Positions 35-30,480 of a stretch of 64,000 nt of DNA are shown piece after piece. Under the pieces are notes generated by a model. That model made no database searches, was not told where the DNA came from, and saw only the letters and a list, made by a program, of their open reading frames with translations. Position 1 is the first letter of the stretch, and every line of letters starts with the position of its first letter. Origin of the DNA: Candidatus Staskawiczbacteria bacterium RIFCSPHIGHO2_02_FULL_42_22 (GTDB taxonomy: Bacteria > Patescibacteriota > Minisyncoccia > Minisyncoccales > Staskawiczbacteraceae); the NCBI GenBank assembly GCA_001820175.1, contig MHOT01000012.1, positions 124-64,123 on the forward strand. The letters run 5' to 3'. The position numbers and the translations under genes were made by a program.

Positions 35-2620
35 ATGAAAGAATTTATACTGTCGCTAACTATGCACAAATTTTTCTCTTTCATCTTTAAACAAAAGAAG
101 ATATTGATTCTTGTGCTTTTGGCATTGGTAATAACAGGAATTATTGCACCTCAAGTTGCTTTTGCCTGGGATTCATGGCAAGACATGTTTAGTGATTGCT
201 TTCTTAACCCCCGTTGCATATTTAGTGAAAAATCTGCTGTAGTAAGAGGTACTGTAGCCGGTATTATTGGCGGACTTATTACTATTATAGGATCCCTTAT
301 TCTTGGAATGACCGCACTCTTTAGTTTTATATCGGGAACCTTACTAAACTGGGTTTTGGTAATTTCGACAAAAGTAAGCTATACCAGCACCGATCCGTTA
401 TATAACCCAGTCATAGCTACCGGCTGGCCCATTGTAAGGGACTTTGCCAATATTATTATTGTGTTAGGCCTTGTTATTATTGCCCTGGCCACCATTTTGC
501 GCTTTAAAAATTATGAAACCCGCCAGCTTTTGGTAAAACTGATCGTTGCCGCCCTGCTCATTAATTTTTCTTTGGTAATCTGCGGCGTAGTTATTGATAT
601 TTCCAATGTGCTTATTTCCTATTTTTTGGGCAACGGCAATGCATGGGCATTTCTTTCCAATGATCAGGGATTCGAGGTTGCGCTAAATTTTTCAAAAAAT
701 GCCGCAAAAGACACCCCCCTTGTTTTATTTTCAAGACTGTTCGCTAATGTATTTTTTAACATTATGCAGGGTGTTATTAATTATCTCTATGTCTTTTTAT
801 TTTTATTTAGAATTTTTGCTCTTTGGGTACTAGTACTTTTATCCCCTCTGGCCTTTGCCTGCTACGTATTCCCCAAAACCAAGACCATGATTTTCGACAA
901 GTGGTTGAATAACTTTTTGCAATGGGCATTTATCGGGGCTCTTGGCGCCATGTTTATTTTCCTGGCAAATAAAATAAATATTGCTATGTCAAAAGCGGGA
1001 ACAGGAATCGCTAACTTTAAATTTCCGGAGGGTAATGGACCCGGTAAGATATTTGATTTTATAGGTAACGATGTTACAAAAATATTTACTTTTTTTGTGC
1101 CGGGAATGTTTTTGGTCATCGGGTTTATTATATCACTGCAGGTTTCAGCCGCTGGGGCCAACTACGCCGTCGCAGGGTTTAAAAGGAGCGGAAATGCAAT
1201 AGCCCGAGCGGGCAAATGGACCAGAAAATTCGCAGCGGATAACATTGGATACAGAGGATATACCGCCACAAGCATAAAAGATGCAGTCGTAGATAGAGCA
1301 ACTAGAATTGGGGAAAGTTTAAGGCTTATTAATAGAGGGACAGCAGATACGAATAAAAAAGTAAGACAATCTGGCAAATTAGATGAAAAGGGACGAGTAG
1401 AACGAGCAAATGATATGAACACTCAGCAGAAACTTGCCGTGGCAAGAGAAACACCATTAACCCAAGCAGCTGGATTAAACCAAGCTGCAGTACTTAAGAG
1501 TATGACCAAAGAAGAGTTTGGCCTACTAAGTAATGATGAGCAAATAAGATTATTAAGAAATAGCGAACAGAACGGTTATGGATTAAAACCACATGAAATG
1601 GTGACTAAAATGAGTACGGCTAATCAAAATCGAGTAGTGCGAGAAGATATGTTTGATTCAAAGACCAGAGGAGAAGCATTAAAATCTTTAGCTGGAAAAG
1701 GGCAAATTAATTCCTCATCGTATAATCCAGCTGTAGCAACATCAGCATTAAATCAGGATGAAATTATTAGAGCAATGCAAGACGCAAGAGATAATGGATC
1801 AGATCTAAAAGACATTATTAGTGGATTAGAAGGACAGGATTTGGCTGACATCATCGGAGAAACTAGAACTGCGGCTGCAATGGGGGAGGAACTTTTTGAC
1901 GGAGCAACAAGGGTTAAATTATTAAAAGCATTGGGCGATAAAAAACAAACTGATTTACTAACACAAGTAGAATTAATGGATGAAATGAGGTTGGCTGCGA
2001 TAAATGGAATGAAATTACCAGATATTGTAGGAAAATTAGATAGTGCAAACCAGGCCCATATCATTGAAAATAATCTATTTAATCCAGAAACAAGAGCTAA
2101 AGTAGTAGAATCACTAGCTAAAAAGGGAAGACTTGACCTTATACCAGTTGCCAGTCGATCAACGGCATTTACTGAAGCCATGGATAATGGAGTTGATGCA
2201 GAAGATTTGGAAAAAGCAGATTACCATGCTGCTGAATTCAATCAAGTTAGAATACAACGACTCATAGCTAACGGCGTTGCTCCAGCCAATGCGCCAACTG
2301 AAGCAAGAAGACAGGTCCTCGATAGTACAATAACTAAAATGGACGGGGATCAACTTCGAGGAATTGACAGAATAGATATTACCGCAGATAGAATTGAAGC
2401 ATTGACTCCGGAAAAAGTACTTGAATTCCGCTATGCTAGCACTGACAGAAGAACGGAAATTAGGACGACAGTAAGAGCAGCCCTTGATACAAAGAGAACA
2501 GCTGCTGATGCGGACTATAACATAGCTCAGGTCGCGGGGGAAGTAGCAAAAGCCGAAAAAGCTCTGGATAAATGGACTAAATTGGATAAGCTAATAAAAG
2601 CAATCGATCTTTTACCATAG
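35..2620 (+). CDS. VirB6/TrbL-like polytopic membrane protein with long hydrophilic C-terminal repeat domain (T4SS-like locus)
   Basis: N-terminal signal/TM then 6-7 hydrophobic helices over ~380 aa (e.g. IIGGLITIIGSLILGMTALF, IIVLGLVIIALATIL, VFLFLFRIFALWVLVLLSPLAF). The C-terminal ~480 aa is hydrophilic with ~40-aa degenerate repeats (ETR..K.L..LG). Placed next to VirB3-like and VirB4 genes. Family assignment by architecture and context only. Confidence 0.45.
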   Translation: MKEFILSLTMHKFFSFIFKQKKILILVLLALVITGIIAPQVAFAWDSWQDMFSDCFLNPRCIFSEKSAVVRGTVAGIIGGLITIIGSLILGMTALFSFISGTLLNWVLVISTKVSYTSTDPLYNPVIATGWPIVRDFANIIIVLGLVIIALATILRFKNYETRQLLVKLIVAALLINFSLVICGVVIDISNVLISYFLGNGNAWAFLSNDQGFEVALNFSKNAAKDTPLVLFSRLFANVFFNIMQGVINYLYVFLFLFRIFALWVLVLLSPLAFACYVFPKTKTMIFDKWLNNFLQWAFIGALGAMFIFLANKINIAMSKAGTGIANFKFPEGNGPGKIFDFIGNDVTKIFTFFVPGMFLVIGFIISLQVSAAGANYAVAGFKRSGNAIARAGKWTRKFAADNIGYRGYTATSIKDAVVDRATRIGESLRLINRGTADTNKKVRQSGKLDEKGRVERANDMNTQQKLAVARETPLTQAAGLNQAAVLKSMTKEEFGLLSNDEQIRLLRNSEQNGYGLKPHEMVTKMSTANQNRVVREDMFDSKTRGEALKSLAGKGQINSSSYNPAVATSALNQDEIIRAMQDARDNGSDLKDIISGLEGQDLADIIGETRTAAAMGEELFDGATRVKLLKALGDKKQTDLLTQVELMDEMRLAAINGMKLPDIVGKLDSANQAHIIENNLFNPETRAKVVESLAKKGRLDLIPVASRSTAFTEAMDNGVDAEDLEKADYHAAEFNQVRIQRLIANGVAPANAPTEARRQVLDSTITKMDGDQLRGIDRIDITADRIEALTPEKVLEFRYASTDRRTEIRTTVRAALDTKRTAADADYNIAQVAGEVAKAEKALDKWTKLDKLIKAIDLLP

Positions 2621-2644
2621 CACTGTTTATTAATTTAAATACAT

Positions 2645-3265
2645 ATGATTGAAGAAAAAAATACAATTATACCTTTTAGTAAGAATGCTACAGATATTCT
2701 TTATGGCATAGAAAAAAAATACAAATTAGAAGAAACTCGAGAGGAAACCATACAAAGGATTCATAATCATAAAATTCACAAAATTAATATTGTGGCTACT
2801 CTTGTAAGGAATTTTATATTGGAAGAAATCTCTAATACAGAATTTCTTGATGCTCTCCATAAAGAGTTGCATATCTCAAAAGAAGCGGTAAAAAATCTAG
2901 CTATAGATATAGTAGATAATTTAATCCCGTTATTAGAAAAAATTCCCGAAGATCAACTGGAAGAATATAATAGAAAAAAACGATCAAAAGAAAAAAATAA
3001 AGAAGCAGATGTTAAGAAAACAGAAAATAAAAAGGGGGAATTTCAAGAACAATTATTAAATAAAATAAGAGGCGATGTAAATATCCCGAAACCCGAACCG
3101 AAAGAAACACCAGCGACGCCCAACCTTAAAAAACCCGAAATTGAAGATGTGGAAGATAATGCAAAGGATATTCAACATGTCCAACAAAAAAAGGAGGAAA
3201 CCGTAGTCCCACCAACGCTAAAAGAAGAAAAGAAGGCAGATCCATACCAGGAACCTGTGGAATGA
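2645..3265 (+). CDS. hypothetical K/E-rich protein
   Basis: Long ORF in coding-dense region; highly charged, no recognisable motif. Confidence 0.3.
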   Translation: MIEEKNTIIPFSKNATDILYGIEKKYKLEETREETIQRIHNHKIHKINIVATLVRNFILEEISNTEFLDALHKELHISKEAVKNLAIDIVDNLIPLLEKIPEDQLEEYNRKKRSKEKNKEADVKKTENKKGEFQEQLLNKIRGDVNIPKPEPKETPATPNLKKPEIEDVEDNAKDIQHVQQKKEETVVPPTLKEEKKADPYQEPVE

Positions 3266-3730
3266 ATTTCTAATTGACCTAATCAAACCCCAATGAACAA
3301 TGAGCCAATTTCTAAAATCTACGACTTAGAAGAAAGAACAGCTAAATTTGGTGAAAACATAATAAAGTTTGCCAGAAAAATACCTAAAGATGTCATTACC
3401 TTACCTTTAATAAATCAGTTAGTAAAATCCGGCACCAGTGTGGGTGCTAATTACTGTGAAGCGGATGATGCTGAATCGAAACAGGATTTTAAACATAAAT
3501 TGGGAATTTGTAAAAAAGAGGCAAGGGAAACAAAACATTGGCTAAGAATGATTGTGATTGCCATACCAGAAATAGAAAAAGAAGCAAAAATACTTTGGCA
3601 AGAAGCTAAAGAATTAAATCTTATCTTTAATGCTATTATTAAAAAATTAAAATAAAGCCATTTTAGACATTCGGTATTCTAAATTAGGATTTGATTAGAA
3701 ATTAGGTTAATTAGAAATTAGAAATTGCAT
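3266..3730. mobile_element. AT-rich inverted-repeat cassette 1 carrying a four-helix-bundle gene
   Basis: Left arm ttctaattgacctaatcaaa (3268-3290) and right arm tttgattagaaattaggttaattagaaattagaa (3690-3726) are inverted copies flanking ORF 3293..3655. Confidence 0.5.
3293..3655 (+). CDS. four-helix-bundle protein (PF05635 / 23S rRNA intervening-sequence protein / Avd-like family)
   Basis: ~120 aa. Family hallmarks present: EERT.KFGENII.F, LINQLV.SGTSVGANYCEA and KQDFKHKLGICKKEARETKHWL. Confidence 0.65.
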   Translation: MNNEPISKIYDLEERTAKFGENIIKFARKIPKDVITLPLINQLVKSGTSVGANYCEADDAESKQDFKHKLGICKKEARETKHWLRMIVIAIPEIEKEAKILWQEAKELNLIFNAIIKKLK

Positions 3731-3756
3731 ATTTTTAATATCATTAAAAATTAGCG

Positions 3757-4146
3757 ATGGCACAATACTCCACTCCACAATTTACTGAAAGCGAAGGGAA
3801 AATTATTTCTTTCCTCACCTTTCGCCAATTTTTTGTCCTCGTTGGAGGAGGAGCGGTTTGTTTTGCGCTGTATTACACCCTGCCGTTTGCTCTTTTTTTG
3901 ATTTTAGGGATAATGGTGGCCACCATAACCGCGGCCATCGCATTTTTAAAAGTAAATAATACTTCAGTAGTAACCCTGGTACTTCACTTTATTACCTTTT
4001 CAATCGCCTCAAAAACGTATGTATGGAAGAAAAAAGAATCGGTATATCCTTTTGCTAGTAAGCGGTACGAGGCCAAGGATATGGAAGTGGGCGGCAAAAC
4101 CGCGCTGGATGCTACTAAAAAAATAGTAGAATACCGCAAGAAGTGA
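3757..4146 (+). CDS. VirB3/PrgI-like small membrane protein (T4SS-like locus)
   Basis: 129 aa with two adjacent TM helices (FFVLVGGGAVCFALYYTLPFALFLILGIMVATITAAIAF). Lies immediately upstream of VirB4, as VirB3/PrgI does in Gram-positive-type T4SS. Confidence 0.35.
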   Translation: MAQYSTPQFTESEGKIISFLTFRQFFVLVGGGAVCFALYYTLPFALFLILGIMVATITAAIAFLKVNNTSVVTLVLHFITFSIASKTYVWKKKESVYPFASKRYEAKDMEVGGKTALDATKKIVEYRKK

Positions 4147-4149
4147 ATT

Positions 4150-4650
4150 TATTTTTATTATGAATCTCGAATCTTGTATCTTGTAGCTTGAATAGAATAA
4201 AGAATCATGAATGATGACAATAAAATCAGAAGGTTTACCGATCTTCATGCTTGGCAAGAGGGGCATAAGTTAGTATTAATGGTCTATAGAAATACTGAAA
4301 CATTTCCCGATAAAGAAAGGTTTGGGATAATAGACCAAATGAGACGAGCTGTAATTTCTTTGACTTCTAATATAGCGGAGGGATTTTCAAGGAGGTCTTC
4401 AAAAGAAAAGAACAGGTTTTATTGCATGGCCCAGGCATCATTAGTAGAATTACAAAATCAACTTATTATTTCTAGAGATATTGGTTATTTATCAAATGAT
4501 GAATTTAAAATAATTGCAGATCAGTCAGTGGTGGCAAATAAACTGTTAAATGGACTCTTAAAAGCTACTAAAGATAAAAAATTTGAATCTTAGATTCTTA
4601 ATTCAAAATTCTATTCAAGCTACAAGATACAAGATTCAAGATTCACACAC
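4150..4650. mobile_element. AT-rich inverted-repeat cassette 2 carrying a four-helix-bundle gene
   Basis: gaatctcgaatcttgtatcttgtagcttgaatagaat (4160-4197) is mirrored by attctattcaagctacaagatacaagattcaagattc (4603-4641), flanking ORF 4207..4593. Confidence 0.55.
4207..4593 (+). CDS. four-helix-bundle protein (PF05635 family)
   Basis: 128 aa. Family motifs present: LTSNIAEGFSRRS..EK.RFY..A.AS..ELQNQL. Confidence 0.6.
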   Translation: MNDDNKIRRFTDLHAWQEGHKLVLMVYRNTETFPDKERFGIIDQMRRAVISLTSNIAEGFSRRSSKEKNRFYCMAQASLVELQNQLIISRDIGYLSNDEFKIIADQSVVANKLLNGLLKATKDKKFES

Positions 4651-4653
4651 ATT

Positions 4654-5328
4654 ATGGCAGAGCAATCAACTCAAGATTTTTTAGAATTCAAAGACATTAA
4701 AGAAGGTATTGTTATCCTTAAAAACAACGATATTCGGGGCGTTTTAATGGTCTCTTCCATTAATTTTGCCTTAAAGTCCGACGATGACCGCGCGGCCATC
4801 ATTTATGCCTTCCAGAATTTTTTAAATTCCCTGGATTTTCCCTGCCAGATTGTGGTGCAGTCAAAAAAAATCAACATCACCCGCTACTTAGACACCCTGC
4901 GCGCTCTGGAAGAAAAGCAAACCAACGAACTGCTTAAAATCCAAACTGCTTCATACATAGAGTTTATAAAAAACCTGGTGCAGGGTGATGCGGTTATGAC
5001 CAAAAACTTTTACGTTGTGGTGCCTTACGCCCTTACGGCAATCTTGGGTACTGGTGCTATTACCAAACAGTTCAATATTCCGGATTTATTGGGCAAAAAA
5101 AATAAGGCCGGCGGGCCGGTGCAATCCATCAGCGACGAGGACTTTGAAAAATGCAAAAACCAGCTTTGGCAACGAATGGAATTTTTGGCCCTTGGCTTAA
5201 AGCGTTGCGGATTAGACAGCGTGCCGCTTACCACCCCGGAATTAATTGAATTGTTCTGGTCACTACACCACCCAAGCGAAGCGGAAGTGGGGTATTCACC
5301 GGAGATAATACCGGAATTATTGAAATAA
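4654..5328 (+). CDS. VirB4-family ATPase, N-terminal segment (split gene)
   Basis: Shows the DIKEGIVILKNNDIRGVLMVSSINFALKSDDDRAAIIYAFQNFLNSLDFPCQIVVQSKK pattern typical of the N-terminal region of Gram-positive-type VirB4 (TcpF/Orf16-like). The stop codon abuts the left arm of cassette 3. Confidence 0.5.
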   Translation: MAEQSTQDFLEFKDIKEGIVILKNNDIRGVLMVSSINFALKSDDDRAAIIYAFQNFLNSLDFPCQIVVQSKKINITRYLDTLRALEEKQTNELLKIQTASYIEFIKNLVQGDAVMTKNFYVVVPYALTAILGTGAITKQFNIPDLLGKKNKAGGPVQSISDEDFEKCKNQLWQRMEFLALGLKRCGLDSVPLTTPELIELFWSLHHPSEAEVGYSPEIIPELLK

Positions 5329-5808
5329 TTCCGAATTATCAATTATCAATTTTCAAGTATCAATCAAGTTTTAAATTACTAAATTATCAATATGGAAAAG
5401 ATATTTGACCTAGAGGAAAGAACTATGGTTTTTGCAGAAAATATAATTGATTTAGTAAGATCAATAAAAAGTGACTCGGTAAATAATAGAATTATCACCC
5501 AATTAGTAGGTTCAAGTGGCTCTATCGGAGCAAATTATTGCGAAGCCACAGAAGGTGAAAGTAAAAAAGATTTTATTCATAAAATTGGCATCGCCAAAAA
5601 AGAAATAAAAGAAACCAAGCACTGGTTGCGATTATTAGCCAGAGCTAATCCTGAGAAAAAAGAAGAAATAAGAAAATTATGGAAAGAAGTACAAGAACTG
5701 CTATTAATATTCTCTAAAATAATCAGAAGCAGTAAAACCAACGCGATTGAAAATTAATTACTTGATCATTTATTGATACTTGAAAATTGATAATTGATAA
5801 TTAAGATC
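5329..5808. mobile_element. AT-rich inverted-repeat cassette 3 carrying a four-helix-bundle gene, inserted between the two VirB4 segments
   Basis: aattatcaattatcaattttcaagtatcaat (5335-5366) is mirrored by attgatacttgaaaattgataattgataatt (5771-5802), flanking ORF 5392..5757. Confidence 0.55.
5392..5757 (+). CDS. four-helix-bundle protein (PF05635 family)
   Basis: 121 aa. EERT..FAENII, SIGANYCEATEGESKKDFIHKIGIAKKEIKETKHWL; paralog of 3293..3655. Confidence 0.65.
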   Translation: MEKIFDLEERTMVFAENIIDLVRSIKSDSVNNRIITQLVGSSGSIGANYCEATEGESKKDFIHKIGIAKKEIKETKHWLRLLARANPEKKEEIRKLWKEVQELLLIFSKIIRSSKTNAIEN

Positions 5809-7611
5809 ATGGCTATTCCATTCTTCAAAAATAAAAAGGGGACAGAAATAGAAGAAGAAAAAATCTTTGGCCAAGACACCCTTAACATCAAGGACATCAT
5901 TGCTCCTCCTTACATTGGCATTACCCAGGATAATATTAAGCTGGGAGAAAAAATAGTAAAGTCATTTTTTATTTTCTCCTACCCCCGGTATATAAATACC
6001 GGCTGGCTGTCTCCGGCCATCAATCTGAATGTTCCCATGAACATTGCTTTTTTCATCCACCCGGTTGACAGTTCCCAGATTTTACGGAAATTGCGTTCAA
6101 AGGTGACCCAAGTTTCTTCAGAATTAATAGAGCGCCAGGAAAAGGGGCTTATCCGCGATCCGGCCCTTGAAACATCTTACCAAGACATTGAAAATTTACG
6201 GGATAAAATCACCACCGCCCAGGAAAAAATGTTTCAGTTCGGGCTGTATATTACTTTATTTGAAGAAAATCCTCAAACCCTCAAAGAAACTGAGGTAACC
6301 CTACGGTCTATTTTTGAATCACGGCTTATTTACATAAAACCGGCGCTCTTTAAACAAAAAGAGGGGTTTATTTCCACCCTTCCCTACGGTCTGGATATGC
6401 TTTCGGTTCACGTGCCCATGGACACCGACCCTTTATCCACTTCATTTCCTTTTATTTCGTTTGACTTAAGCTCAAATGAAGGGATTTTATACGGCATCAA
6501 CAACCATAATAATTCCCTGGTGCTCTTTGACCGCTTCACGCTGGAGAACGCAAACATGGTGGTCTTCGCAAAATCGGGATCCGGCAAGTCCTACGCCATA
6601 AAATTGGAAATTTTGCGCTACCTAATGTGGGGAATTGATGTTATTGTGGTAGACCCGGAAAACGAGTATGAATTTTTATCGGATGGCGTTGGGGGCGACT
6701 TTTTCAACATTTCCCTTACTTCAGATACCCATATTAACCCCTTTGACTTGCCTATGCCCGGAGCGGAAGAAAACCCCGAAGATATTTTGCGCTCTAACAT
6801 TATTAACTTGGTGGGGCTGTTGCGAATTATGCTTGGCGGATTGAGTGCAGAAGAAGATAGCATTGTCGACGAAGCCCTCACTGAAACCTACGCCATCCGC
6901 GATATTACGGCCCAATCAAACCCCGCCACCTGGCAGGAAAACATACCCGTTCTGTCCGACTTTGCGGAAATTTTGGAAAGCATGGCGGGAGCCGAATCGC
7001 TGGCCAGGCGCCTTAAAAAATTCACCCAGGGAACTTTTTCTGATTTTTTCAACCAAAAAACCAATATTGCCATGGATAAGCCATTTATTGTCTTTGGCAT
7101 CCGCGATATGGAAGAATCACTGCGGCCGGTGGCCCTTTTTATGGTCATGCGATACATTTGGAACACTATTCGCACCCACATCAAAAAGAGGATTTTAGTG
7201 GTGGACGAGGCCTGGTGGCTGACCCAGTCCGAAGACGGCGCTTCGTTTTTATTTAGCGTGGTAAAACGCGGCCGAAAATACTGGCTGGGGGTTACCACCA
7301 TCACCCAGGACGTAGAGGACTTTATGAAATCAAGTTATGGTAAGGCCATTATTACGAATTCCTCGCTGCAATTATTACTAAAACAATCACCGGCCACCAT
7401 TGACGTGATGCAAAATATATTCAATTTAACTGAACAGGAAAAAATGCTTCTTTTGGAAGCCAATGTAGGGGAGGGACTCTTTTTTGCCGGTAAAAAACAT
7501 GTCAGTATTAGTATAAAAGCCAGCTACACCGAAGACCAGATTATTACTACCAACCCGGGGGAGGTGGAAAAGATAAAGGAAGCTAAAAGGAAACTAAAGG
7601 AAAATCTATAA
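5794..7611 (+). CDS. virB4: VirB4/TraC/CagE-family T4SS ATPase (C-terminal, catalytic segment)
   Basis: Walker A VVFAKSGSGKSY, Walker B RILVVDEAWWL, motif VTTITQD. The N-terminal IIAPPYIGITQDNIKLGEKIVKSFFIFSYPRYINTGWLSPAINLN matches the conserved VirB4 region. The actual start is possibly the ATG at 5809. Confidence 0.8.
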   Translation: MIIKIMAIPFFKNKKGTEIEEEKIFGQDTLNIKDIIAPPYIGITQDNIKLGEKIVKSFFIFSYPRYINTGWLSPAINLNVPMNIAFFIHPVDSSQILRKLRSKVTQVSSELIERQEKGLIRDPALETSYQDIENLRDKITTAQEKMFQFGLYITLFEENPQTLKETEVTLRSIFESRLIYIKPALFKQKEGFISTLPYGLDMLSVHVPMDTDPLSTSFPFISFDLSSNEGILYGINNHNNSLVLFDRFTLENANMVVFAKSGSGKSYAIKLEILRYLMWGIDVIVVDPENEYEFLSDGVGGDFFNISLTSDTHINPFDLPMPGAEENPEDILRSNIINLVGLLRIMLGGLSAEEDSIVDEALTETYAIRDITAQSNPATWQENIPVLSDFAEILESMAGAESLARRLKKFTQGTFSDFFNQKTNIAMDKPFIVFGIRDMEESLRPVALFMVMRYIWNTIRTHIKKRILVVDEAWWLTQSEDGASFLFSVVKRGRKYWLGVTTITQDVEDFMKSSYGKAIITNSSLQLLLKQSPATIDVMQNIFNLTEQEKMLLLEANVGEGLFFAGKKHVSISIKASYTEDQIITTNPGEVEKIKEAKRKLKENL

Positions 7612-8532: not shown

Positions 8533-8540
8533 AACAACCC

Positions 8541-8686
8541 TAGATTGCTTCGTCGTCACGCCTGCGGGCGCAACTCCTCGCAATGACGGGGGACACAGAA
8601 TTCGCGTCATTGCGAGGAGCCCGCAGGCGACGAAGCAATCTAACGGTGAACGGAGATTGCTTCGCTGCGGCTCGCAATGACGGATT
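8541..8686. repeat. GC-rich palindromic element (GTCATTGCGAGG...GAAGCAATCT...AGATTGCTTC...CCTCGCAATGAC family), tandem pair
   Basis: Nested inverted repeats read directly: cgtcattgcgaggagcccgcaggcgacgaagcaatctaacggtgaacggagattgcttcgctgcggctcgcaatgacgg. Confidence 0.7.
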
Positions 8687-8773: not shown

Positions 8774-11700
8774 ATGATTAAAAAACCGAAAAAACTAATT
8801 TATTTCTTTGCCGTTTTTTTGATAGGTTTTTTACTGTTAACGGTAAGCTATAGCGCTTTGGCGCTGGAAGTGCAATATCCTCACATTCCGGGATTTTCGG
8901 ATATTAAAAATGGAAGCACCCTACCCGATTATATTAATTATTTCTTTGGCTTTATTATGGTAACGGCCGGAATCATTGCGGTTATTTCCATTGCCATTGG
9001 TGGCCTGCGCATGTTAATTTCTGCCGGTAACCCGGGGGCCCGCGGCGAGGCGATGGACCGGATTTTTGGAGGAGTGCTAGGTATTATTTTATTGATGTTT
9101 TCCTACGTTATTTTAGAGACCATTAATCCCCAGCTGGTGAATTTGCAAGAAACAAGTGTAGTGTCTCTAAACAAAGGAATGTTTTTAGGAGAGCCGAAGG
9201 AGGGACAGGCCATGAATAATAATTCACACTCCATTACGGCTAATTTCGCCCAAAAATTACTAATAAATAACCCCCTTGCGGTTGCAATCGCGAAAGCCGA
9301 TGGAAGTTTCTATAGCCAATTTAATATTGAAGATTATGATATCACCCCATTGCCCGAATCCATAATTAATAGAACTTTCAAGCCGGGGAGTTTTGTTTGG
9401 AATAATTGTCCGGGGTGTGTTGAAGGAGACGGTCCGGGTAAATTTCTGCGGGTGACATACCGTTCTGAGGGCGAAGAGTTTAACGATGACGATACTGCGG
9501 CAAAGCGTGTTCATTTACCAGACATAGAAACTACTGACGAAAATTTTGACGAGGTTAGCTTCTCTCTTTATGGAGTAAAAGACCTTGATTGGGCCGAAAA
9601 AACGCCGGGGATCTATCTTTTTAAGACCGATGATTGCACGGGCCTGCCCACCCGTGTCATTACTAGCAGCGGGCAAATTCCCCCCGGTTTTCAAAACCAG
9701 GTGCGTTCAGCCCAGATTCTTAATGGGAATGAAGAGGGAGACCCCCGCTACGGATTTATTTTAAACACCAGCCCCGATTTAAAGGGCACCTGCAGCCAGC
9801 CGTTTATGAATTATGAGGCCAGCGACCCTGATTACGAGGACGGAGAAGACCATGATTCCGAAGACGAAGCCCCGTGTTTTCCAATTATTAACGACTCACC
9901 TTCGTGCGATTTTACGGTCCCCCAAACCCATAATGTATGCGTTAACCAAACCTGTACCCAAGTAGACGGAGTGGGGGACAATGCCTGCAACACTAGTTCC
10001 GACTGCCTGCCCCAAACCCACAACGAATGCGTCAACCAGGCCTGTCAAGAGATAAGCGGAGCTGGCGATAATAAATGTACCAGCAACAGCGAATGTCTTC
10101 CTACGTGTAATACCGATACACAAAAGTGCGAGGTGGGGGGCGGAGGAAAGAGTTGTAATTCTGATTCAGAATGTACAACTTCTGTTCATAACGAATGCGT
10201 CAACCAGGCCTGCCAAGAGGTAAGTGGAGCTGGCGATAATAAATGTACCAGCAATAGCGAATGTCTTCCTACGTGTAATACCGATACACAAAAGTGCGAG
10301 GTGGGGGGCGGAGGAAAGAGTTGTAATTCTGATTCCGAGTGCACACCGCAACTGGCAGTATTGACCATAAAAAAAGTGGTTGATAATGCGGGGGTTGGGA
10401 ACTCTAATTGCGAAAGTTTTCAGACCTATCGTCTATTTGATTATAATCACTCTGAATGGCTTGGGCTTAACCTATGTCCATCGGGTACGGTGGATATACC
10501 GCTTGAAGCAGGTTATTATGCATTTATGGAAAATGAGCGCAGGCCCCCCTACAAGGCAACTTATGAAGGCGCATGCCCCAGCACCAATATTATCCAAGTA
10601 ACCGAAGGCCAAAATGCCACCTGTACGGTTACTAATACATATAGTTATGGATGCAATAGCCAAAACCAATGTGTTGAAGGGGGCACGGTTAAAGGTTGTG
10701 ATATTGCCAACGGTGATGCCGACTGCACTGCGCCAACTGGCAAATGTAGCACTAACCCTAGCCAGACCTATACTTGTTCTCCGTCAAATAATGGCGCCCC
10801 TTGCACCTCTGCCAATGTATGTAAACCAAGATGCAATAGCCAAAACAAATGCGTTCAGGGGCTTACTGAAGGGCCAGAATGCAGTAATCTTGGCGGTGAC
10901 TGTACTGCATCCATTCTTGTAACAAAAGAATGTGATCCGGTTGGTGATCAAGGGCGCTTTATTATGAGAAAGGACGGTCAGAATATGAATGGCCCAAACA
11001 CTCCGGATATAGGATGTGGCGAAAGCGCAAGCGCCCAAGTAACACCGGGAAGAGATTATATCATAAGCGAAGCTCCTGGAAACAGTACCACTGATCTCTC
11101 TAAATATGATACAGTTATTGGCGGGGAATGCGACCGAAGCGGCCGATTTACTGCGAAGGTAGGTGTTAATAGGTGTACCATCACCAATAACAAGAAACAT
11201 GCGTATTTGCAAATAAAAAAAGAGTGCAGTCCCACAGATGATACTGGTCACTTTGACTTGCGAATTGATGGCATAACGACTTATAGTCAGAATATGGATT
11301 GTGTAAATAATACCACTACTCCACGTAGAGATGTGGGTACTGGAACCCATACCGTCAGTGAACTTGCGGGAAGTAATACCAATCTTTTCGATTACACCAC
11401 TACTATTGATTGCGGTTCGGGGGCGACCAGCGGAACTAGTAAAACTATCACCCTGCAAAAAGATGATGATAAACTCTGCACTATTACCAACACTAAAAAA
11501 CCACCCGGTTCCGCGTCTATAAAAGTAGTAAAACAGTGTAATCCGAGTAGCGACCCAGGTCGTTTTAAAGCAACTATTAATGGCGAAATTGCCAGCAACC
11601 AAGAATTAACATGTACCGGCCCCACGTCATCGGTAACTATTAATGTATCACCCGGAAATTATCTGGTAGGTGAAGTTGCTGGCAGTGGTACCAACCTCTC

Positions 11701-13414
11701 CCAATACAACCCACCGGTGTTTGGTGGGGACTGCACTCAAAGTGGACAAATTATTGCGGAAGTAGGAAAAACGAATTCATGTATTATTACTAATAGCCCC
11801 AAAACTGCTTCATCAGCAACCCTGCGTTTTCATAAGACCGTATTTAATAGCGACAACAATGGTAGTCCCGATTATTCTCCTAATGATTTCGGACCATTTA
11901 CCCTGCAAAATACATCTCGTTCATATACATTTAATGTAGATGCAAGCGGCGATGCCATAATTACTAATATTGTACCCGATACATATTCTATTATTGAAAA
12001 TTATCAAGATTATTATGAGGCAACTTATACCGGAACCGGTGGAGCATGTAACGGCAATAATATCATACCTTTAGGACCAGGAGAAACAAAGGAGTGCATT
12101 ATTTTTAATAGGTGGGAGGGAGGAATATTAGTGTTACATAAAATTATAAAGGATGGTGATTTAAAAAGCGAAGATTTTCTGCCATTTATTTACGATGCAG
12201 ACTTGGATTATGGTCAATTCTATACTTGGGGAGTACCAATACCAGTTTATGCTGGTCATCAGTTGTACGTCTCTGAAATCATACCTGCTAATTCTAATTA
12301 TACCGGCCAATTTGCTCCCCCAAGCGATTGCGATGCAAATGGAGGCATTATTCTTGACGTAGACCAATGGGCGGATTGCAATATTACTAATACCTATCAA
12401 CCTAGCCCATCAGACACAATGTTAACGGTAATAAAAAAAGTAGTGGGAGGACCACTGGATGGGCAATCAAGCCAGTTCCGGATGACCATCGCTGGTTCTG
12501 CTGGCCCTGCCGTACAGGGAGATAATTCTTTTCCTGGCACAGATGACCCCGGCACCCCAAAGATGTTATCTATAACTGGCCCTACCGACTACCGCGTCGA
12601 AGAATCATCGGTCAGCGGTTACACAATGACATATTATAATAATTGCTCAGGTACCATAAACCCGGGGGATCACATCATCTGCAGTATTACTAATACTTAT
12701 CAATTAGGAGCAGGATTAATAAACCCTCAAAACGCTATTTTGGCTAATGTTTCAACCAGTATTATTAATAAAATAAGGCCAGAAATAATTTCTCTTGCCT
12801 CACCCATGCGCATCCGGCTTGCCGCCACGGTTGATGATAGGGGAGGCGTCGGTAGCGACCCTATCGCATTCCCCGCCAGTTATATTTATGTTATTAAGGG
12901 TTACAACCCTGGCAATCCGGAGTTTGATACCCCGGGAACCGGGGTAAGCTTGTATGCCGGCACGCGCTACAAATACCTTCCACCTTCCACTATTAAACAA
13001 CACTTTATTTTAGATGGGACAACTGATTGCGACGACACCTATCAAACCTGCTGGCCCTACACCAACACCGACGATTTATTAAAAGAAATTGGCGATATCC
13101 AGCCGGGTTTTGGTCAAAACCAGGATATCTGCAAGCGAACCTATATTTACCCCTGCACCCAGTACATCGACCACCAGGGAAGCTACCTTACGGTTTTATA
13201 CACCCAAAACCAGGGAAACCCCTACAACCAAACCTGCAGCACTTTCATTAATTCGGTTGACTTTATCAGGGACACCAATAATATTCCCATAGGTAGCACA
13301 CCTATTAACAATCCCTTGCCCACCAATTCTAATATTGATGTAAATAGCGATATTAGTATTTTTGATAATAATAAATACGTCTGCAGAGTGGATATCTTCC
13401 CAATACTGCCGTAG
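8774..13414 (+). CDS. giant surface protein: VirB2/TrbC-like pilin N-terminal module fused to ~1400-aa cysteine-rich and repeat-rich extracellular region (putative T4SS-anchored adhesin)
   Basis: N-terminus has signal/TM, helix YINYFFGFIMVTAGIIAVISIAIGGLRMLISAG, short charged loop NPGARGEAMDRIF and a second helix GGVLGIILLMFSYVIL (VirB2/TrbC-like). These are followed by an acidic linker and four CxNQxCQxxxGAGDNKCTSNSECLP modules. After that come ten or more ~100-aa beta-rich repeats ending in C.ITNT. Confidence 0.5.
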   Translation: MIKKPKKLIYFFAVFLIGFLLLTVSYSALALEVQYPHIPGFSDIKNGSTLPDYINYFFGFIMVTAGIIAVISIAIGGLRMLISAGNPGARGEAMDRIFGGVLGIILLMFSYVILETINPQLVNLQETSVVSLNKGMFLGEPKEGQAMNNNSHSITANFAQKLLINNPLAVAIAKADGSFYSQFNIEDYDITPLPESIINRTFKPGSFVWNNCPGCVEGDGPGKFLRVTYRSEGEEFNDDDTAAKRVHLPDIETTDENFDEVSFSLYGVKDLDWAEKTPGIYLFKTDDCTGLPTRVITSSGQIPPGFQNQVRSAQILNGNEEGDPRYGFILNTSPDLKGTCSQPFMNYEASDPDYEDGEDHDSEDEAPCFPIINDSPSCDFTVPQTHNVCVNQTCTQVDGVGDNACNTSSDCLPQTHNECVNQACQEISGAGDNKCTSNSECLPTCNTDTQKCEVGGGGKSCNSDSECTTSVHNECVNQACQEVSGAGDNKCTSNSECLPTCNTDTQKCEVGGGGKSCNSDSECTPQLAVLTIKKVVDNAGVGNSNCESFQTYRLFDYNHSEWLGLNLCPSGTVDIPLEAGYYAFMENERRPPYKATYEGACPSTNIIQVTEGQNATCTVTNTYSYGCNSQNQCVEGGTVKGCDIANGDADCTAPTGKCSTNPSQTYTCSPSNNGAPCTSANVCKPRCNSQNKCVQGLTEGPECSNLGGDCTASILVTKECDPVGDQGRFIMRKDGQNMNGPNTPDIGCGESASAQVTPGRDYIISEAPGNSTTDLSKYDTVIGGECDRSGRFTAKVGVNRCTITNNKKHAYLQIKKECSPTDDTGHFDLRIDGITTYSQNMDCVNNTTTPRRDVGTGTHTVSELAGSNTNLFDYTTTIDCGSGATSGTSKTITLQKDDDKLCTITNTKKPPGSASIKVVKQCNPSSDPGRFKATINGEIASNQELTCTGPTSSVTINVSPGNYLVGEVAGSGTNLSQYNPPVFGGDCTQSGQIIAEVGKTNSCIITNSPKTASSATLRFHKTVFNSDNNGSPDYSPNDFGPFTLQNTSRSYTFNVDASGDAIITNIVPDTYSIIENYQDYYEATYTGTGGACNGNNIIPLGPGETKECIIFNRWEGGILVLHKIIKDGDLKSEDFLPFIYDADLDYGQFYTWGVPIPVYAGHQLYVSEIIPANSNYTGQFAPPSDCDANGGIILDVDQWADCNITNTYQPSPSDTMLTVIKKVVGGPLDGQSSQFRMTIAGSAGPAVQGDNSFPGTDDPGTPKMLSITGPTDYRVEESSVSGYTMTYYNNCSGTINPGDHIICSITNTYQLGAGLINPQNAILANVSTSIINKIRPEIISLASPMRIRLAATVDDRGGVGSDPIAFPASYIYVIKGYNPGNPEFDTPGTGVSLYAGTRYKYLPPSTIKQHFILDGTTDCDDTYQTCWPYTNTDDLLKEIGDIQPGFGQNQDICKRTYIYPCTQYIDHQGSYLTVLYTQNQGNPYNQTCSTFINSVDFIRDTNNIPIGSTPINNPLPTNSNIDVNSDISIFDNNKYVCRVDIFPILP
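10008..10340 (+). repeat. near-perfect tandem duplication (~150 bp x2) inside the adhesin CDS
   Basis: cacaacgaatgcgtcaaccaggcctgtcaagag...gattcagaatgtaca is repeated with about 7 substitutions. It encodes a duplicated HNECVNQACQE.SGAGDNKCTSNSECLPTCNTDTQKCEVGGGGKSCNSDSEC module. Confidence 0.8.
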
Positions 13415-13416
13415 TA

Positions 13417-13525
13417 TTACCACTCGTCATTGCGAGGGTTCGAAACCCGAAGCAATCTCCACCTCTCGTCATTGCGAGCCACGGCGAAGTAATCTTATAG
13501 CGATCCCTCACGCCTCGTCATTGCG
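13417..13525. repeat. GC-rich palindromic element, interrupted by IS insertion
   Basis: cgtcattgcgagggttcgaaacccgaagcaatctcc...cgtcattgcgg, then the IS. The remainder of the element (tcattgcgaggagtcctgagc...) resumes at 14597. Confidence 0.6.
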
Positions 13526-14596
13526 GGTATAAAGGTAGGTAACTTGTTGCTAATTTTTGAAGTAGATATACCACTTAAAGAAATCCTTTCGCCTGCCCTT
13601 TAACAATCCGCGATGTTGTCGGTAAATAATTTTTAATCTTGAAAAATATCCCTCGATCTTGTTCGTGGTTGAAGGAATATTTTTATCTTTTAAATAATGG
13701 AACATGCTCGGCAGAGCGTTTATCAATAAATTTCTGGTTGCTTTAAGATCGCTGAAAACTTTATCCTTTGAAGACAGGAGGTTCACCGATTTTCCGTATT
13801 TCCTTTCCCATTTTTGAAAAGTATTTAAGAATATTTTTTTACCTCTTTCATTTTTAATTTTTGTAACAGATAGCAATATATCTCTTAATTTCTTGCTGGC
13901 CTCCAGCTTTGGATTTCTTCTTAACCATGATAACCCCTGCCGTTGAATGTGTGCCAAACATCTTTGTATGATAATATCTGGCCAGACATCTTTAATGGCC
14001 CTCATTACGCTTGTATTGCCATCTACCGTGATAGCCATGGGCATAATGCCGCAGCTCTTTGACTCTTCAAAAATTGATCTTGCATATTCGTAATTTTCTC
14101 TGATACAATATTTATGATTTACGATTTTACCATTCGAATTGTCTATTAGCACCATTAGACAATTTTCATGTTTGAAATATGTCCCATCAAAAAGTAAATA
14201 TTTTATTTGATGGTAATTTAGAGTTTTTTTATCCGGCGCTTTGTTCATCCAAAAAGATAATATTTGTTTTATCTTCCAAATTCCACGACGGCTAATACTG
14301 ACTAATTGCCTTGCCGAATAACCCTCAACAATCCACAGCTCAAACCATTTTCTTTCGTTAAATTCCTTGTTCTTGCGATTATGAAAAGTGTAGGTGTGCT
14401 TACAAATTTTACATCTATACCTCTGGTAACCGCATGAAGTGCGACCAAATAATTTAACATTCAAAGAACCACACTTTAGACAACTTTTTTTTCATAATAT
14501 TGAACTGATTTGATATTATTCCAGATTTTAATTGTAATTTACTCTCAAATTAGCACGAAATCCGCATTTTTAGCAACAAGTTACCTACCTTTATAC
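13526..14596 (-). mobile_element. IS1595-family-like insertion sequence with 27-bp perfect TIRs and 8-bp target duplication
   Basis: TIR gtataaaggtaggtaacttgttgctaa at 13527-13553, with its reverse complement at 14570-14596. The direct repeat tcattgcg occurs at 13518-13525 and 14597-14604. There is a single transposase ORF. Confidence 0.7.
13550..14464 (-). CDS. transposase (N-terminal zinc ribbon plus DDE domain; IS1595-like)
   Basis: C..C...C..C near the N-terminus (CGYQRYRCKICKH). DDE-region motifs LFDGTYF, ITVDGNTSVMRAIKDVWPD and TNKIEGYFSRLK. Length 304 aa. Confidence 0.7.
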   Translation of the reverse strand: MNVKLFGRTSCGYQRYRCKICKHTYTFHNRKNKEFNERKWFELWIVEGYSARQLVSISRRGIWKIKQILSFWMNKAPDKKTLNYHQIKYLLFDGTYFKHENCLMVLIDNSNGKIVNHKYCIRENYEYARSIFEESKSCGIMPMAITVDGNTSVMRAIKDVWPDIIIQRCLAHIQRQGLSWLRRNPKLEASKKLRDILLSVTKIKNERGKKIFLNTFQKWERKYGKSVNLLSSKDKVFSDLKATRNLLINALPSMFHYLKDKNIPSTTNKIEGYFSRLKIIYRQHRGLLKGRRKDFFKWYIYFKN

Positions 14597-14690
14597 TCAT
14601 TGCGAGGAGTCCTGAGCCGCAGCGAAGGACGACGAAGCAATCTAACATTGAACGGAGATTGCTTCACTGCGGCTCGCAATGACGGCGTAA
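14597..14690. repeat. GC-rich palindromic element (right part of IS-disrupted copy plus hairpin)
   Basis: tcattgcgaggagtcctgagccgcagcgaaggacgacgaagcaatctaacattgaacggagattgcttcactgcggctcgcaatgacgg. Confidence 0.65.
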
Positions 14691-30476: not shown

Positions 30477-30480
30477 GTTT

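What the first reader, a model, noticed from the sequence alone, without database searches (positions are those of the whole stretch)
8774..13414. Giant cysteine-rich repeat protein with a very recent internal tandem duplication
Within the adhesin-like ORF, the segment 10008..10340 is a ~150-bp unit repeated twice with only about 7 nucleotide differences. Each unit encodes a Cys-rich module (HNECVNQACQE.SGAGDNKCTSNSECLPTCNTDTQKCEVGGGGKSCNSDSEC). Two more diverged copies of the first half-module precede it. Downstream are many ~100-aa repeats with conserved C.ITNT ends. Near-identical in-frame DNA repeats in a surface protein are a classic substrate for copy-number variation by slipped-strand or recombinational change.
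Basis: seen in the sequence. Interest (0 to 1): 0.7.

Follow-up and report, generated by a model that had tools for sequence, protein, structure and literature searches.

The report
Secretion-system pilin fused to adhesin stalk
The repeat is real, but it is an old, selectively maintained duplication of one stalk module in a 1546-residue surface protein of an ultra-small (CPR) bacterium, whose front end is a type IV secretion pilin and whose long middle looks like the stalk of a Gram-positive adhesin.

Summary
The ORF (8774-13414, +, 1546 aa, 66 Cys) and the tandem repeat are real. The unit is 168 nt (56 aa), not about 150. The copies are 10019-10186 and 10187-10354, with 8 differences in the 52 module codons.

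Seven of the 8 differences are synonymous (dS 0.28, dN/dS 0.03). So the duplication is neither very recent nor an assembly error. Five nucleotide assemblies carry two copies. One-copy forms occur only in greedy protein-level (Plass) assemblies, and one Plass sequence carries a 134-aa in-frame deletion. Copy-number variation is therefore unproven.

The protein is a hypothetical protein of a Candidatus Staskawiczbacteria MAG. Its parts, in order:
- a VirB2-like T4SS pilin hairpin (PF18895);
- a beta-gamma-crystallin-like domain;
- a 973-aa insert of nine 4-Cys mini-modules and seven CnaB/SpaA-type beta-sandwich repeats, each with a conserved Lys-Glu-Asn isopeptide triad;
- a conserved beta-gamma-crystallin-like C-terminal domain.

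It is the last gene of the Patescibacteria T4SS operon beside dnaA. Orthologues in the same slot are 529-2057 aa, and most family members lack the insert.

Best reading: a pilin-anchored, adhesin-like stalk protein whose length evolves by module duplication and deletion. The attachment function is inferred, not shown.

The parts
8774..13414 (+). Whole gene, 1546 aa. It equals OGZ69325.1, a hypothetical protein of a Candidatus Staskawiczbacteria MAG.
8774..8866 (+). Leader or signal-like hydrophobic segment (aa 1-31). It ends in the conserved ALA|LE motif.
   Evidence: Hydropathy segment aa 5-34. A30, L31 and E32 are invariant in 8 relatives.
8867..9139 (+). VirB2-like T4SS pilin domain (aa 32-122): two long hydrophobic helices joined by a short charged loop.
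9146..9874 (+). Conserved post-pilin domain 'X' (aa 125-367). It is beta-rich, its C-terminal half is beta-gamma-crystallin-like, and it is followed by an acidic linker.
9926..10006 (+). Diverged 4-Cys module A0 (aa 385-411).
10019..10186 (+). Tandem unit 1 (aa 416-471): module A1, module B1 and the linker TTSV.
10187..10354 (+). Tandem unit 2 (aa 472-527): module A2, module B2 and the linker TPQL.
10349..10639 (+). Beta repeat 1 (aa 526-622), CnaB/SpaA-like, with K534, E586 and N621.
   Evidence: SpaA_2 E 3.6e-4 over the full profile length. Triad positions.
10649..10906 (+). Second cluster of three 4-Cys modules, B3-B5 (aa 626-711).
10907..12697 (+). Beta repeats 2-7 (aa 712-1308). Each has a Lys (first strand), Glu and Asn (C.ITN, last strand) triad and at least one Cys pair.
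12791..13411 (+). Conserved C-terminal domain (aa 1340-1546), ending in ...VDIFPILP. Its fold is beta-gamma-crystallin-like.
10251..10660 (+). Span bounded by two GCAATAGC microhomologies (10251-10258 and 10653-10660). Recombination between them would give the 402-nt (134-aa) in-frame deletion seen in P0001.
35..7611 (+). Upstream T4SS-like operon:
- 861-aa polytopic membrane protein, 35-2620, VirB6-like by architecture only;
- 206-aa ORF, 2645-3265;
- PrgI/VirB3, 3757-4146;
- TrsD-like, 4654-5328;
- VirB4 ATPase, 5794-7611.
Three '23S rRNA IVP' four-helix-bundle genes are interspersed.
   Evidence: PMC12102498
8352..8533 (.). MITE-like 182-nt element with 28-nt perfect terminal inverted repeats, in the 450-nt gap upstream of the gene. 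It is not part of the protein. Relatives have no such gap.
13507..14616 (-). Insertion sequence: a Mutator-like transposase (13550-14464) flanked by 47-nt inverted repeats, directly downstream of the gene. It separates the gene from jag-yidC-rnpA-rpmH and dnaA.

Best explanation
The gene encodes a modular, pilin-anchored, adhesin-like surface protein of the type IV secretion (T4SS)-like apparatus of a Patescibacteria (CPR) bacterium.

Shown:
- A leader and a VirB2-type two-helix pilin domain form the N-terminus. Hydropathy implies that everything after aa 122 lies outside the cell.
- Most relatives (about 450-600 aa) consist only of this pilin domain, a beta-gamma-crystallin-like domain X and a conserved C-terminal domain that directly abut.
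- In this protein a 973-aa insert separates X from the C-terminal domain. The insert holds nine 27-aa four-Cys hairpin modules and seven CnaB/SpaA-type beta-sandwich domains.
- The flagged 168-nt tandem repeat is a duplication of one di-module (A+B) of this insert. Both copies have been kept almost unchanged at protein level by purifying selection while synonymous sites diverged.

Inferred:
- The beta domains form intramolecular Lys-Asn isopeptide bonds, catalysed by the conserved Glu. The Cys modules and beta domains are disulfide-bonded. Together they give a rigid, protease-resistant stalk.
- The stalk holds the C-terminal domain tens of nanometres from the cell, or from a pilus built or primed by the pilin domain, so that it can contact a host cell.
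- Stalk length is tuned over evolutionary time by duplication and deletion of modules.
For: Identity and context:
- PF18895 scores above its gathering threshold.
- AF2 predicts a helical hairpin.
- It is the only pilin-domain ORF in the 64-kb window.
- The operon is PrgI-TrsD-VirB4 followed by this gene.
- The same slot (after VirB4, before jag-yidC-rnpA-rpmH|dnaA-dnaN) holds the homologue in 5 relatives, with lengths 529, 862, 1111, 1196 and 2057 aa.
- This is the arrangement described for Patescibacteria T4SS (PMC12102498).

Family:
- Exhaustive HMMER with aa 1-380 finds 12,353 cluster representatives.
- In 97 of 109 representatives that have both domains, X and the C-terminal domain abut. 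Nine carry inserts of 377-1566 aa.

Stalk:
- A beta-repeat HMM finds 33 instances in 6 giant relatives. Conservation is K 91%, E 79%, N 94%, C 97%. In a 30-sequence alignment N and C are invariant and K and E are at least 90% conserved.
- The triad is present in all 7 repeats here.
- Homologous repeats hit SpaA_2 at 2.6e-75 and SpaA_3 at 2.1e-20.
- All 17 weak PDB profile hits are proteins annotated as pilins, pilus or adhesin proteins, mostly of Gram-positive bacteria.
- hhalign places our Glu on the catalytic Glu77 of CnaB2/SpyCatcher.
- SpaA_2, SpaA_3, DUF7601 and Cna_B are listed as CnaB-like Lys-Glu-Asn isopeptide families that often also carry disulfides and sit in adhesin stalks (PMC12617251).

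Cys modules:
- All four Cys are invariant in 34 instances.
- AF2 predicts a hairpin plus a short turn at pLDDT 75-85.
- CPR genomes are enriched in MdbA/VKOR-type extracytoplasmic disulfide machinery (bioRxiv 10.1101/335083).

Duplication:
- Sd = 7 and Nd = 1, giving dS 0.28, dN 0.008 and Fisher p 3.6e-5.
- DNA is identical in 3 separate assemblies and 99.85% identical in a fourth.

Function:
- The T4SS and its pilin genes are essential for epibiotic growth of a Saccharibacterium (PMC10633639; PMC12857230).
Against: - No structure was obtained for a beta repeat of this protein. AF2 gave pLDDT below 50 for beta7.
- Our own Pfam hits to SpaA families are below the curated cut-offs.
- Isopeptide and disulfide bonds are inferred from residue conservation only.
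- A 1400-aa C-terminal extension on every subunit is hard to reconcile with a helical VirB2 polymer. The pilin domain may be only a membrane anchor, or the protein may be a minor or tip subunit.
- No binding partner, expression data or localisation exists.
- In this genome the gene is cut off from VirB4 by an extra ORF and a MITE-filled 450-nt gap. Co-transcription with the T4SS genes is therefore uncertain.
Confidence: 0.6

Rival explanations
1. Contingency locus. The two near-identical in-frame units expand and contract frequently by slipped-strand mispairing or unequal recombination. This would give a population that is polymorphic in repeat number and so in surface structure.
For: - Plass assemblies from run SRR3989344 include one-copy forms (P0010, P0012) alongside a two-copy form (P0011).
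- P0001 carries a 134-aa in-frame deletion flanked by an 8-nt microhomology. A false overlap is unlikely to produce this, because Plass requires at least 90% identity in its overlaps.
- An 80-nt tract with no differences is longer than expected (p about 0.02). This is compatible with gene conversion between the copies.
Against: - There are only two copies, and they are 5% diverged.
- The longest identical stretch is 80 nt.
- dS of 0.28 shows the two copies have coexisted for a long time.
- Every nucleotide-level assembly (NCBI MAG, JGI 3300025323, ERZ28563625, ERZ27254752, ERZ4903070) has exactly two copies.
- The one-copy forms differ from the two-copy forms only in a way a greedy protein assembler would produce. 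The two copies differ by a single residue over 52 aa.
- P0011 and P0012 share the same strain marker (K223E) yet disagree on copy number.
Confidence: 0.15
2. Assembly artefact. The duplication, or the whole long repeat-rich ORF, is a mis-assembly of a repetitive region.
For: The source is a metagenome-assembled genome. Repeat-rich genes are classic mis-assembly sites. One assembly (L005) has a cluster of 7 mismatches and a premature stop near the 3' end.
Against: - The exact 1546-aa product is on record on 11 contigs from separate assemblies and pipelines. The DNA is 100% identical over 5.6 kb in the three examined.
- The copies differ at 8 positions in a 7:1 synonymous to non-synonymous pattern, which errors would not produce.
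- The longest exact repeat (80 nt) is shorter than 150-nt reads. It is also shorter than the k = 141 suggested by the contig names, which is my inference from the naming.
- The reading frame is intact through all modules.
Confidence: 0.03
3. Wall-spanning or envelope structural protein. The pilin-like hairpin is just a membrane anchor. The stalk spans the cell wall or S-layer as part of the T4SS channel or as a spacer that sets envelope architecture, without binding a host.
For: - Gram-positive-type T4SS need components that cross a thick wall.
- The protein is too large to polymerise like VirB2.
- Conserved synteny with VirB4 suggests a machine part.
- No recognisable adhesin or lectin domain was found.
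Against: - Stalk length and composition differ greatly between orthologues, from 0 to about 1570 aa of insert. That is unlike a fixed machine part and typical of surface-exposed, fast-evolving proteins.
- Seven CnaB-type domains plus nine Cys modules would extend far beyond a cell wall. This is an inference from a typical domain length of about 4 nm.
- CnaB-type isopeptide repeats are characteristic of adhesin and pilus stalks (PMC12617251).
Confidence: 0.2
4. Delivered toxin or effector. The C-terminal beta-gamma-crystallin-like domain acts like the structurally related killer toxins or antifungal proteins and is presented to, or released onto, the host.
Confidence: 0.05

Closest known systems
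VirB2-like pilins of the Patescibacteria T4SS (Pfam PF18895 T4SS_pilin; Wang et al. 2023, PMC10633639; Quinonero-Coronel et al. 2025, PMC12102498)
   Same: - The N-terminal domain matches PF18895 above threshold.
- It has a leader plus a two-helix hairpin.
- It is encoded next to VirB4, TrsD and PrgI and close to dnaA, as described for this system.
   Different: - The described pilins are small proteins, often in arrays of 2-11 paralogues.
- This one is 1546 aa and is the only pilin-domain gene in 64 kb.
- It carries two beta-gamma-crystallin-like domains and a 973-aa stalk.
- PMC12102498 reports that no adhesins such as PrgB were detected in Patescibacteria, and does not describe pilin-stalk fusions in the passages I read.
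Fibrillar adhesins and sortase pilins of Gram-positive bacteria with CnaB-type isopeptide stalks (Spy0128/T-antigen, RrgB, SpaA/SpaC; Pfam SpaA_2, SpaA_3, DUF7601, Cna_B)
   Same: - Tandem beta-sandwich repeats of about 95 aa.
- Lys in the first strand, Glu, and Asn in the last strand, plus disulfides.
- An anchor-stalk-distal domain layout.
   Different: - There is no LPXTG motif or sortase signal, and no sortase gene was noted in the window.
- The anchor is an N-terminal pilin-type membrane hairpin, so the polarity is reversed and the distal domain is C-terminal.
- The repeats are interleaved with 4-Cys mini-modules.
- Our repeats score below the Pfam cut-offs.
Modular type IV pilins, such as Streptococcus sanguinis PilB/PilC (recalled from my own knowledge, not checked here)
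   Same: The principle is the same: a pilin module that inserts in the filament or membrane, with a functional module grafted onto its C-terminus.
   Different: The pilin superfamily is different (type IV pilus class III signal peptide versus VirB2-type hairpin). The grafted part here is about ten times larger.
T4SS adhesins VirB5 (pilus tip) and PrgB (Enterococcus pCF10)
   Same: It is encoded in a T4SS locus, and its proposed role is target-cell contact.
   Different: No sequence or domain similarity was found to either (Pfam and NCBIfam).
Microbial beta-gamma-crystallin domains (Protein S, clostrillin, nitrollin, DdCAD-1)
   Different: - Sequence identity is 7-14%.
- There is no Pfam Crystall hit.
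- Ca-binding motifs were not verified.
Tandem-repeat contingency surface proteins (for example Alp/Rib and mycoplasma Vlp; from my own knowledge)
   Same: In-frame tandem DNA repeats inside a surface protein.
   Different: Those proteins have many nearly identical units and documented copy-number change. Here there are two units that are 5% diverged, with dS 0.28 and no nucleotide-level variant.

Membership tests
VirB2-like T4SS pilin (PF18895) | Match to the family profile above the curated threshold | tested here: met
   PF18895 scores 28.9 bits against a cut-off of 26.6, E 1.2e-6, aa 49-115. NF045849 pilin-like has E 1.5e-7 but is below its equivalog cut-off.
VirB2-like T4SS pilin (PF18895) | Leader followed by two hydrophobic helices joined by a short polar loop | tested here: met
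   [not shown]
VirB2-like T4SS pilin (PF18895) | Encoded with VirB4 and other T4SS genes | tested here: met
   the synteny is conserved in 5 relatives.
VirB2-like T4SS pilin (PF18895) | Small subunit (about 70-150 aa) that polymerises into a pilus | tested here: not met
   The size is 1546 aa. Polymerisation itself cannot be tested here.
CnaB-like intramolecular isopeptide domain (SpaA_2 / SpaA_3 / DUF7601 / Cna_B) | Profile match above threshold | tested here: inconclusive
   Our repeats score SpaA_2 21.5 bits (cut-off 25), DUF7601 24.2 (27) and SpaA_3 17 (24). Repeats homologous to ours in P0074 and P0019 score 249 and 88 bits for SpaA_2.
CnaB-like intramolecular isopeptide domain (SpaA_2 / SpaA_3 / DUF7601 / Cna_B) | Lys in the first strand, catalytic Glu, Asn/Asp in the last strand | tested here: met
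   The residues are present in 7 of 7 repeats. They are conserved at 79-94% in the 33 HMM-detected instances and at 90% or more in a 30-sequence alignment. The Glu aligns with Glu77 of CnaB2. Strand positions are inferred, not seen in a model.
CnaB-like intramolecular isopeptide domain (SpaA_2 / SpaA_3 / DUF7601 / Cna_B) | Transthyretin-like beta-sandwich fold | tested here: inconclusive
   The AF2 model of beta7 had pLDDT below 50. No further prediction jobs were available.
CnaB-like intramolecular isopeptide domain (SpaA_2 / SpaA_3 / DUF7601 / Cna_B) | The covalent Lys-Asn bond actually forms | not testable with these tools
   This needs mass spectrometry or crystallography.
Fibrillar adhesin | Anchor, repetitive stalk and a distal adhesive domain with demonstrated binding | tested here: inconclusive
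   The anchor and stalk are present. The distal C-terminal domain is conserved and confidently folded but has no known ligand.
Beta-gamma-crystallin domain | Paired Greek-key fold | tested here: inconclusive
   [not shown]
   The module has four Cys in about 27 aa. No Pfam family matches even at E up to 10, nor for a relative with 11 or more modules.
Tandem-repeat contingency locus | Repeat number differs between strains or reads | tested here: inconclusive
   Five nucleotide assemblies all have two copies. One-copy and deletion forms occur only in Plass protein assemblies.
Diversity-generating retroelement target (considered because bAvd-like four-helix-bundle genes are nearby) | Reverse transcriptase plus a template/variable repeat pair | tested here: not met
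   No second copy of any part of the gene exists elsewhere in the window. No reverse transcriptase was seen among the ORFs scanned, but not every ORF was scanned.

The most novel reading that the evidence does not exclude
Patescibacteria T4SS appear to lack a separate adhesin because the adhesin is built into a VirB2-like pilin.
- The pilin hairpin anchors, or caps, a pilus-like structure.
- The C-terminus carries an isopeptide- and disulfide-locked stalk ending in a beta-gamma-crystallin-like contact domain.
- Stalk length is an evolvable trait, and possibly a polymorphism within populations. It would be set by duplication and microhomology-mediated deletion of 4-Cys and CnaB modules, matching the epibiont to the envelope thickness of its host.
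- The 27-aa 4-Cys hairpin would be an undescribed extracellular module family.
Probability: 0.3. Interest if true: 0.7.

Novelty: new variant of a known kind. Interest (0 to 1): 0.45.

Why it matters
The T4SS-like machine of Patescibacteria is essential for epibiotic growth in the one species tested. Reviews describe it as unusual among monoderm systems for encoding VirB2-like pilins (PMC10633639, PMC12857230). How it touches the host is unknown, and a 2025 survey found no adhesins (PMC12102498).

A conserved operon slot holds a pilin domain fused to a variable-length adhesin-type stalk and a conserved distal domain. This gives a concrete, testable candidate for the contact element. It also suggests that stalk length is the fast-evolving variable.

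Two smaller points follow. The protein would extend CnaB-type isopeptide stalk domains to the CPR. It also points to an unannotated 4-Cys module.

The tandem duplication itself is ordinary module duplication. Its main value is as a marker of selection: a dN/dS of 0.03 shows the stalk modules are functional.

Tried and rejected
- Metagenome scan with aa 340-640. It returned one distant contig (L004, 57% identity), so it gave no nucleotide-level copy-number variants.
- Genome-contig searches. The single-protein scan found nothing.
- The search for homologous proteins with a di-module profile. No hit reached E <= 1e-3, because the profile is too short for a 5.8-billion-sequence database. The spread of the Cys module outside this family therefore remains unmeasured.
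- AF2 of beta7 had low confidence because the alignment was shallow over that part.
- Foldseek against the PDB on the N-terminal model found nothing significant. The Cys-module fold remains unassigned.
- phmmer of the whole protein against PDB sequences gave no hits.
- Promoter and terminator scans around the gene gave nothing above shuffled expectation.
- 'Split VirB4' was rejected. The 224-aa ORF at 4654-5328 is the known TrsD component.
- DGR target was rejected. There is no template repeat.
- EGF-like was rejected.
- Look-up of P0001 on contigs. It is not on record, consistent with its being a protein-level assembly only.
Full report
**Observation.** The window carries one long ORF at 8774..13414 (+), 1546 aa. 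It has 66 Cys, 4.3% of residues.

Tandem Repeats Finder reports a period-168 repeat at 10022-10335 with 1.9 copies and 97% matches. The repeat finder gives 10019-10177 and 10187-10345, 159 nt at 95%. The unit is in frame and encodes 56 aa. The two copies are aa 416-471 and 472-527.

The longest exact direct repeat in the gene is 80 nt, against a maximum of 15 nt in 50 shuffles. So the repeat is real, but three details need correcting:
- The unit is 168 nt, not about 150.
- There is one diverged upstream copy of the first half-module (aa 385-411, 60% nt identity), not two.
- Three further modules of the second-half type lie after the first beta repeat, at aa 626-711.

The two 'half-modules' are one module type, about 27 aa with four invariant Cys (34 instances aligned). 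Seven repeats of about 100 aa end in C.[IV]TN or C.IFN.

**Is it an artefact, and is it recent?** The exact 1546-aa product is on record on 11 contigs.
- Three loci from different assemblies (JGI 3300025323, ERZ28563625, ERZ27254752) are 100% identical to the window over 5641 nt.
- A fourth (ERZ4903070) is 99.85% identical.
- All four have both copies.

Within the 52 module codons the copies differ at 8 positions. Seven are synonymous and one is I->V. Nei-Gojobori counting gives dS 0.28, dN 0.008 and dN/dS 0.03, with Fisher p 3.6e-5.

Sequencing or assembly errors would not produce that pattern. It also shows that the duplication is much older than the diversity among the sampled assemblies. 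The copies look 'near-identical' mainly because selection holds the peptide constant. The linker after each unit (TTSV versus TPQL) is unrelated.

A central tract of 80 nt (26 codons) has no difference. With 8 differences placed at random this happens about 2% of the time. That is a weak, post-hoc hint of gene conversion between the copies.

**Copy-number variation.** The 90% cluster of this protein holds eight sequences. The ENA and NCBI/JGI members have two copies. The members labelled SRC come from the Soil Reference Catalog, which was assembled at protein level by Plass.
- Two of them (P0010, P0012) have one copy.
- One (P0011) has two copies.
- The representative P0001 (1412 aa) lacks aa 495-628.

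Plass extends greedily from overlaps of at least 90% identity, and its authors note that repeats can cause unwanted extensions. The two copies differ by a single residue over 52 aa, so a jump from copy 1 to the end of copy 2 is an expected artefact. P0011 and P0012 also share the same strain marker (K223E) yet disagree on copy number.

The P0001 deletion is different. Its junction (..KCTSNS|QNQC..) cannot arise from a 90%-identity overlap. At DNA level it is flanked by the 8-nt microhomology GCAATAGC, at 10251-10258 and 10653-10660, exactly 402 nt apart. At least one read, or a chimeric read, probably carried it.

A scan of the metagenome contig collection gave no nucleotide-level variant. Copy-number or length polymorphism is therefore possible but unproven.

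**What the protein is.** Pfam places aa 49-115 in PF18895 (T4SS_pilin) above the gathering score. NCBIfam gives the related mycoplasma ICE pilin-like family.

The genes upstream, in order:
- an 861-aa polytopic membrane protein, VirB6-like by architecture only;
- a 206-aa ORF;
- PrgI/VirB3;
- a TrsD-like ORF;
- a VirB4 ATPase.

Downstream, after an insertion sequence, lie jag, yidC, rnpA and rpmH, and divergently dnaA and dnaN. This is the Patescibacteria T4SS cluster near the replication origin described by Quinonero-Coronel et al. (PMC12102498).

The source is a Candidatus Staskawiczbacteria MAG of the Parcubacteria group. No other pilin-domain ORF exists in the 64-kb window.

**Family.** An exhaustive HMMER search with aa 1-380 found 12,353 cluster representatives at E <= 1e-3. 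Most of the best 150 are 420-600 aa, and about ten exceed 1100 aa.

Using those sequences:
- 135 of 152 have the post-pilin domain X (our aa 125-367).
- 109 also have the C-terminal domain (our aa 1340-1546).
- In 97 of those 109 the two domains abut (median gap -9 aa).
- Nine carry inserts of 377-1566 aa. Ours is 973 aa.

The homologue sits in the same slot, right after VirB4 and before jag-yidC-rnpA, in five relatives. Their lengths are 529, 862, 1111, 1196 and 2057 aa. So the conserved core is pilin + X + C-terminal domain. The middle is a lineage-specific, fast-changing insert built from the same two module types in different numbers and orders.

**The insert.** A profile of our seven beta repeats finds 33 instances in six giant relatives. 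The consensus is AxLTVxKxV...GxYxVSE...GxCxxxGxxTLxxGxxxxCTITNT, with K 91%, E 79%, N 94% and C 97%. In a 30-sequence alignment, C and N are invariant and K and E are at least 90% conserved. All seven of our repeats have the Lys, Glu and Asn.

Evidence that these are CnaB/SpaA-type domains:
- Our repeats give sub-threshold hits to SpaA_2 (3.6e-4, full profile length), SpaA_3, DUF7601 (5.5e-5) and Cna_B.
- Homologous repeats in P0074 and P0019 hit SpaA_2 and SpaA_3 at 2.6e-75 and 2.1e-20.
- A profile search of PDB sequences returns only weak hits (E 0.15-9). All 17 are proteins annotated as pilins, pilus or adhesin proteins, mostly of Gram-positive bacteria: T-antigen/Spy0128, SpaC, RrgA, PitB and CnaB2 of FbaB.
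- A 2025 survey lists SpaA_2, SpaA_3, SpaA_4, DUF7601, SdrD_B and Cna_B as CnaB-like domains with Lys-Glu-Asn isopeptide triads. It notes that they often also carry disulfides and are typical of adhesin stalks. It does not mention Patescibacteria (PMC12617251).

I could not get a confident model of one of our repeats. The fold and the bond are therefore inferred.

The 4-Cys module has no Pfam match, even in a relative with 11 or more copies. AF2 predicts a beta-hairpin plus a short turn for each module at pLDDT 75-85. Foldseek finds no PDB counterpart.

CPR genomes are enriched in MdbA/VKOR-type disulfide-forming enzymes (bioRxiv 10.1101/335083). Extracellular disulfides are therefore plausible.

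**Mechanism proposed.**

Shown:
- the domain order;
- the operon slot;
- the conservation of the triad and of the Cys;
- purifying selection on both duplicated units;
- the variation in insert length among orthologues.

Inferred:
- The leader is cleaved and the hairpin sits in the membrane (or at the base or tip of a pilus-like structure), with the rest of the protein outside.
- The beta domains lock themselves with Lys-Asn isopeptide bonds, and the Cys modules with disulfides. This gives a stiff, protease-resistant stalk.
- The C-terminal domain at the far end contacts a host cell.
- Duplication of modules, as in the flagged A+B unit, and deletion between short homologies, as in P0001, change stalk length.

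This would supply the adhesin that a survey of Patescibacteria T4SS did not find (PMC12102498). The machine is essential for epibiotic growth in Southlakia epibionticum (PMC10633639; PMC12857230).

The main weakness is that a 1400-aa appendage on every subunit is hard to fit into a VirB2-type helical polymer. The protein may be a minor or tip subunit, or simply membrane-anchored.

**Verdict.** 'Very recent' and 'copy-number variable' are not supported by the nucleotide data. 'Adhesin-like' and 'prealbumin-like repeats' are supported.

Noticed in passing
window 4161-4645 and 5334-5802 (also 3293-3655); L006 7038-7400; L009 960-1331: Three '23S rRNA intervening-sequence protein' (four-helix-bundle, weakly bAvd-like) genes sit between T4SS genes. 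Two of them are bracketed by inverted repeats of about 52 nt (4161-4212/4594-4645 and 5334-5385/5751-5802), like self-contained cassettes. Relatives carry such a gene at different positions in the same operon, or not at all, which suggests mobility.
   Followed up: partly
window 8352-8533, 32317-32498, 56497-56678: A 182-nt MITE-like element with 28-nt perfect terminal inverted repeats is present three times in 64 kb, at 92-97% identity. One copy lies in the 450-nt gap just upstream of the giant gene. Orthologous loci have no such gap.
   Followed up: partly
window 8595-8682, 14597-14684, 38436-38523, 40121-40232, 55050-55157, 56410-56462 and others: There are many copies of a GC-rich palindromic intergenic repeat (CGTCATTGCGAGG...CGACGAAGCAATCT). 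It also generates spurious ORFs with peptides such as ...RSNL...LAMT.
   Followed up: no
window 13507-14616: A complete-looking insertion sequence: a Mutator-family-like transposase (13550-14464, minus strand) flanked by 47-nt inverted repeats. It is inserted between the giant gene and jag/yidC. Relatives lack it.
   Followed up: partly
window 40302-44597 (+): A second very long ORF of 1431 aa. It is rich in Lys and Glu, has no hydrophobic segment and has no Pfam match.
   Followed up: no
window 13130-13157 versus L005: One assembly (ERZ4903070) differs from the window by a cluster of 7 mismatches within 28 nt. This creates a premature stop and truncates the C-terminal domain (P0009, 1456 aa). 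It could be a local assembly error or a real pseudogenised allele.
   Followed up: partly
window 7722-8324 (+): A 200-aa membrane ORF with no family match lies between VirB4 and the giant gene. ORFs of 160-188 aa occupy the same position in L005, L009 and L010, but are absent in L006 and L008.
   Followed up: no
P0004 (861 aa, found): A protein without a pilin domain carries at least 11 tandem copies of the same 4-Cys module. It also has a transmembrane region and a CarboxypepD_reg/SdrD_B-like domain. The module is therefore not restricted to the pilin-fusion family.
   Followed up: partly
window 29163-30557 (-), 61868-62217 (-): A T2SSE/PilB-type ATPase gene (type IV pilus or type II secretion) and a tmRNA gene (tag ANLFNKQPALAYA) are also in the window.
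   Followed up: no
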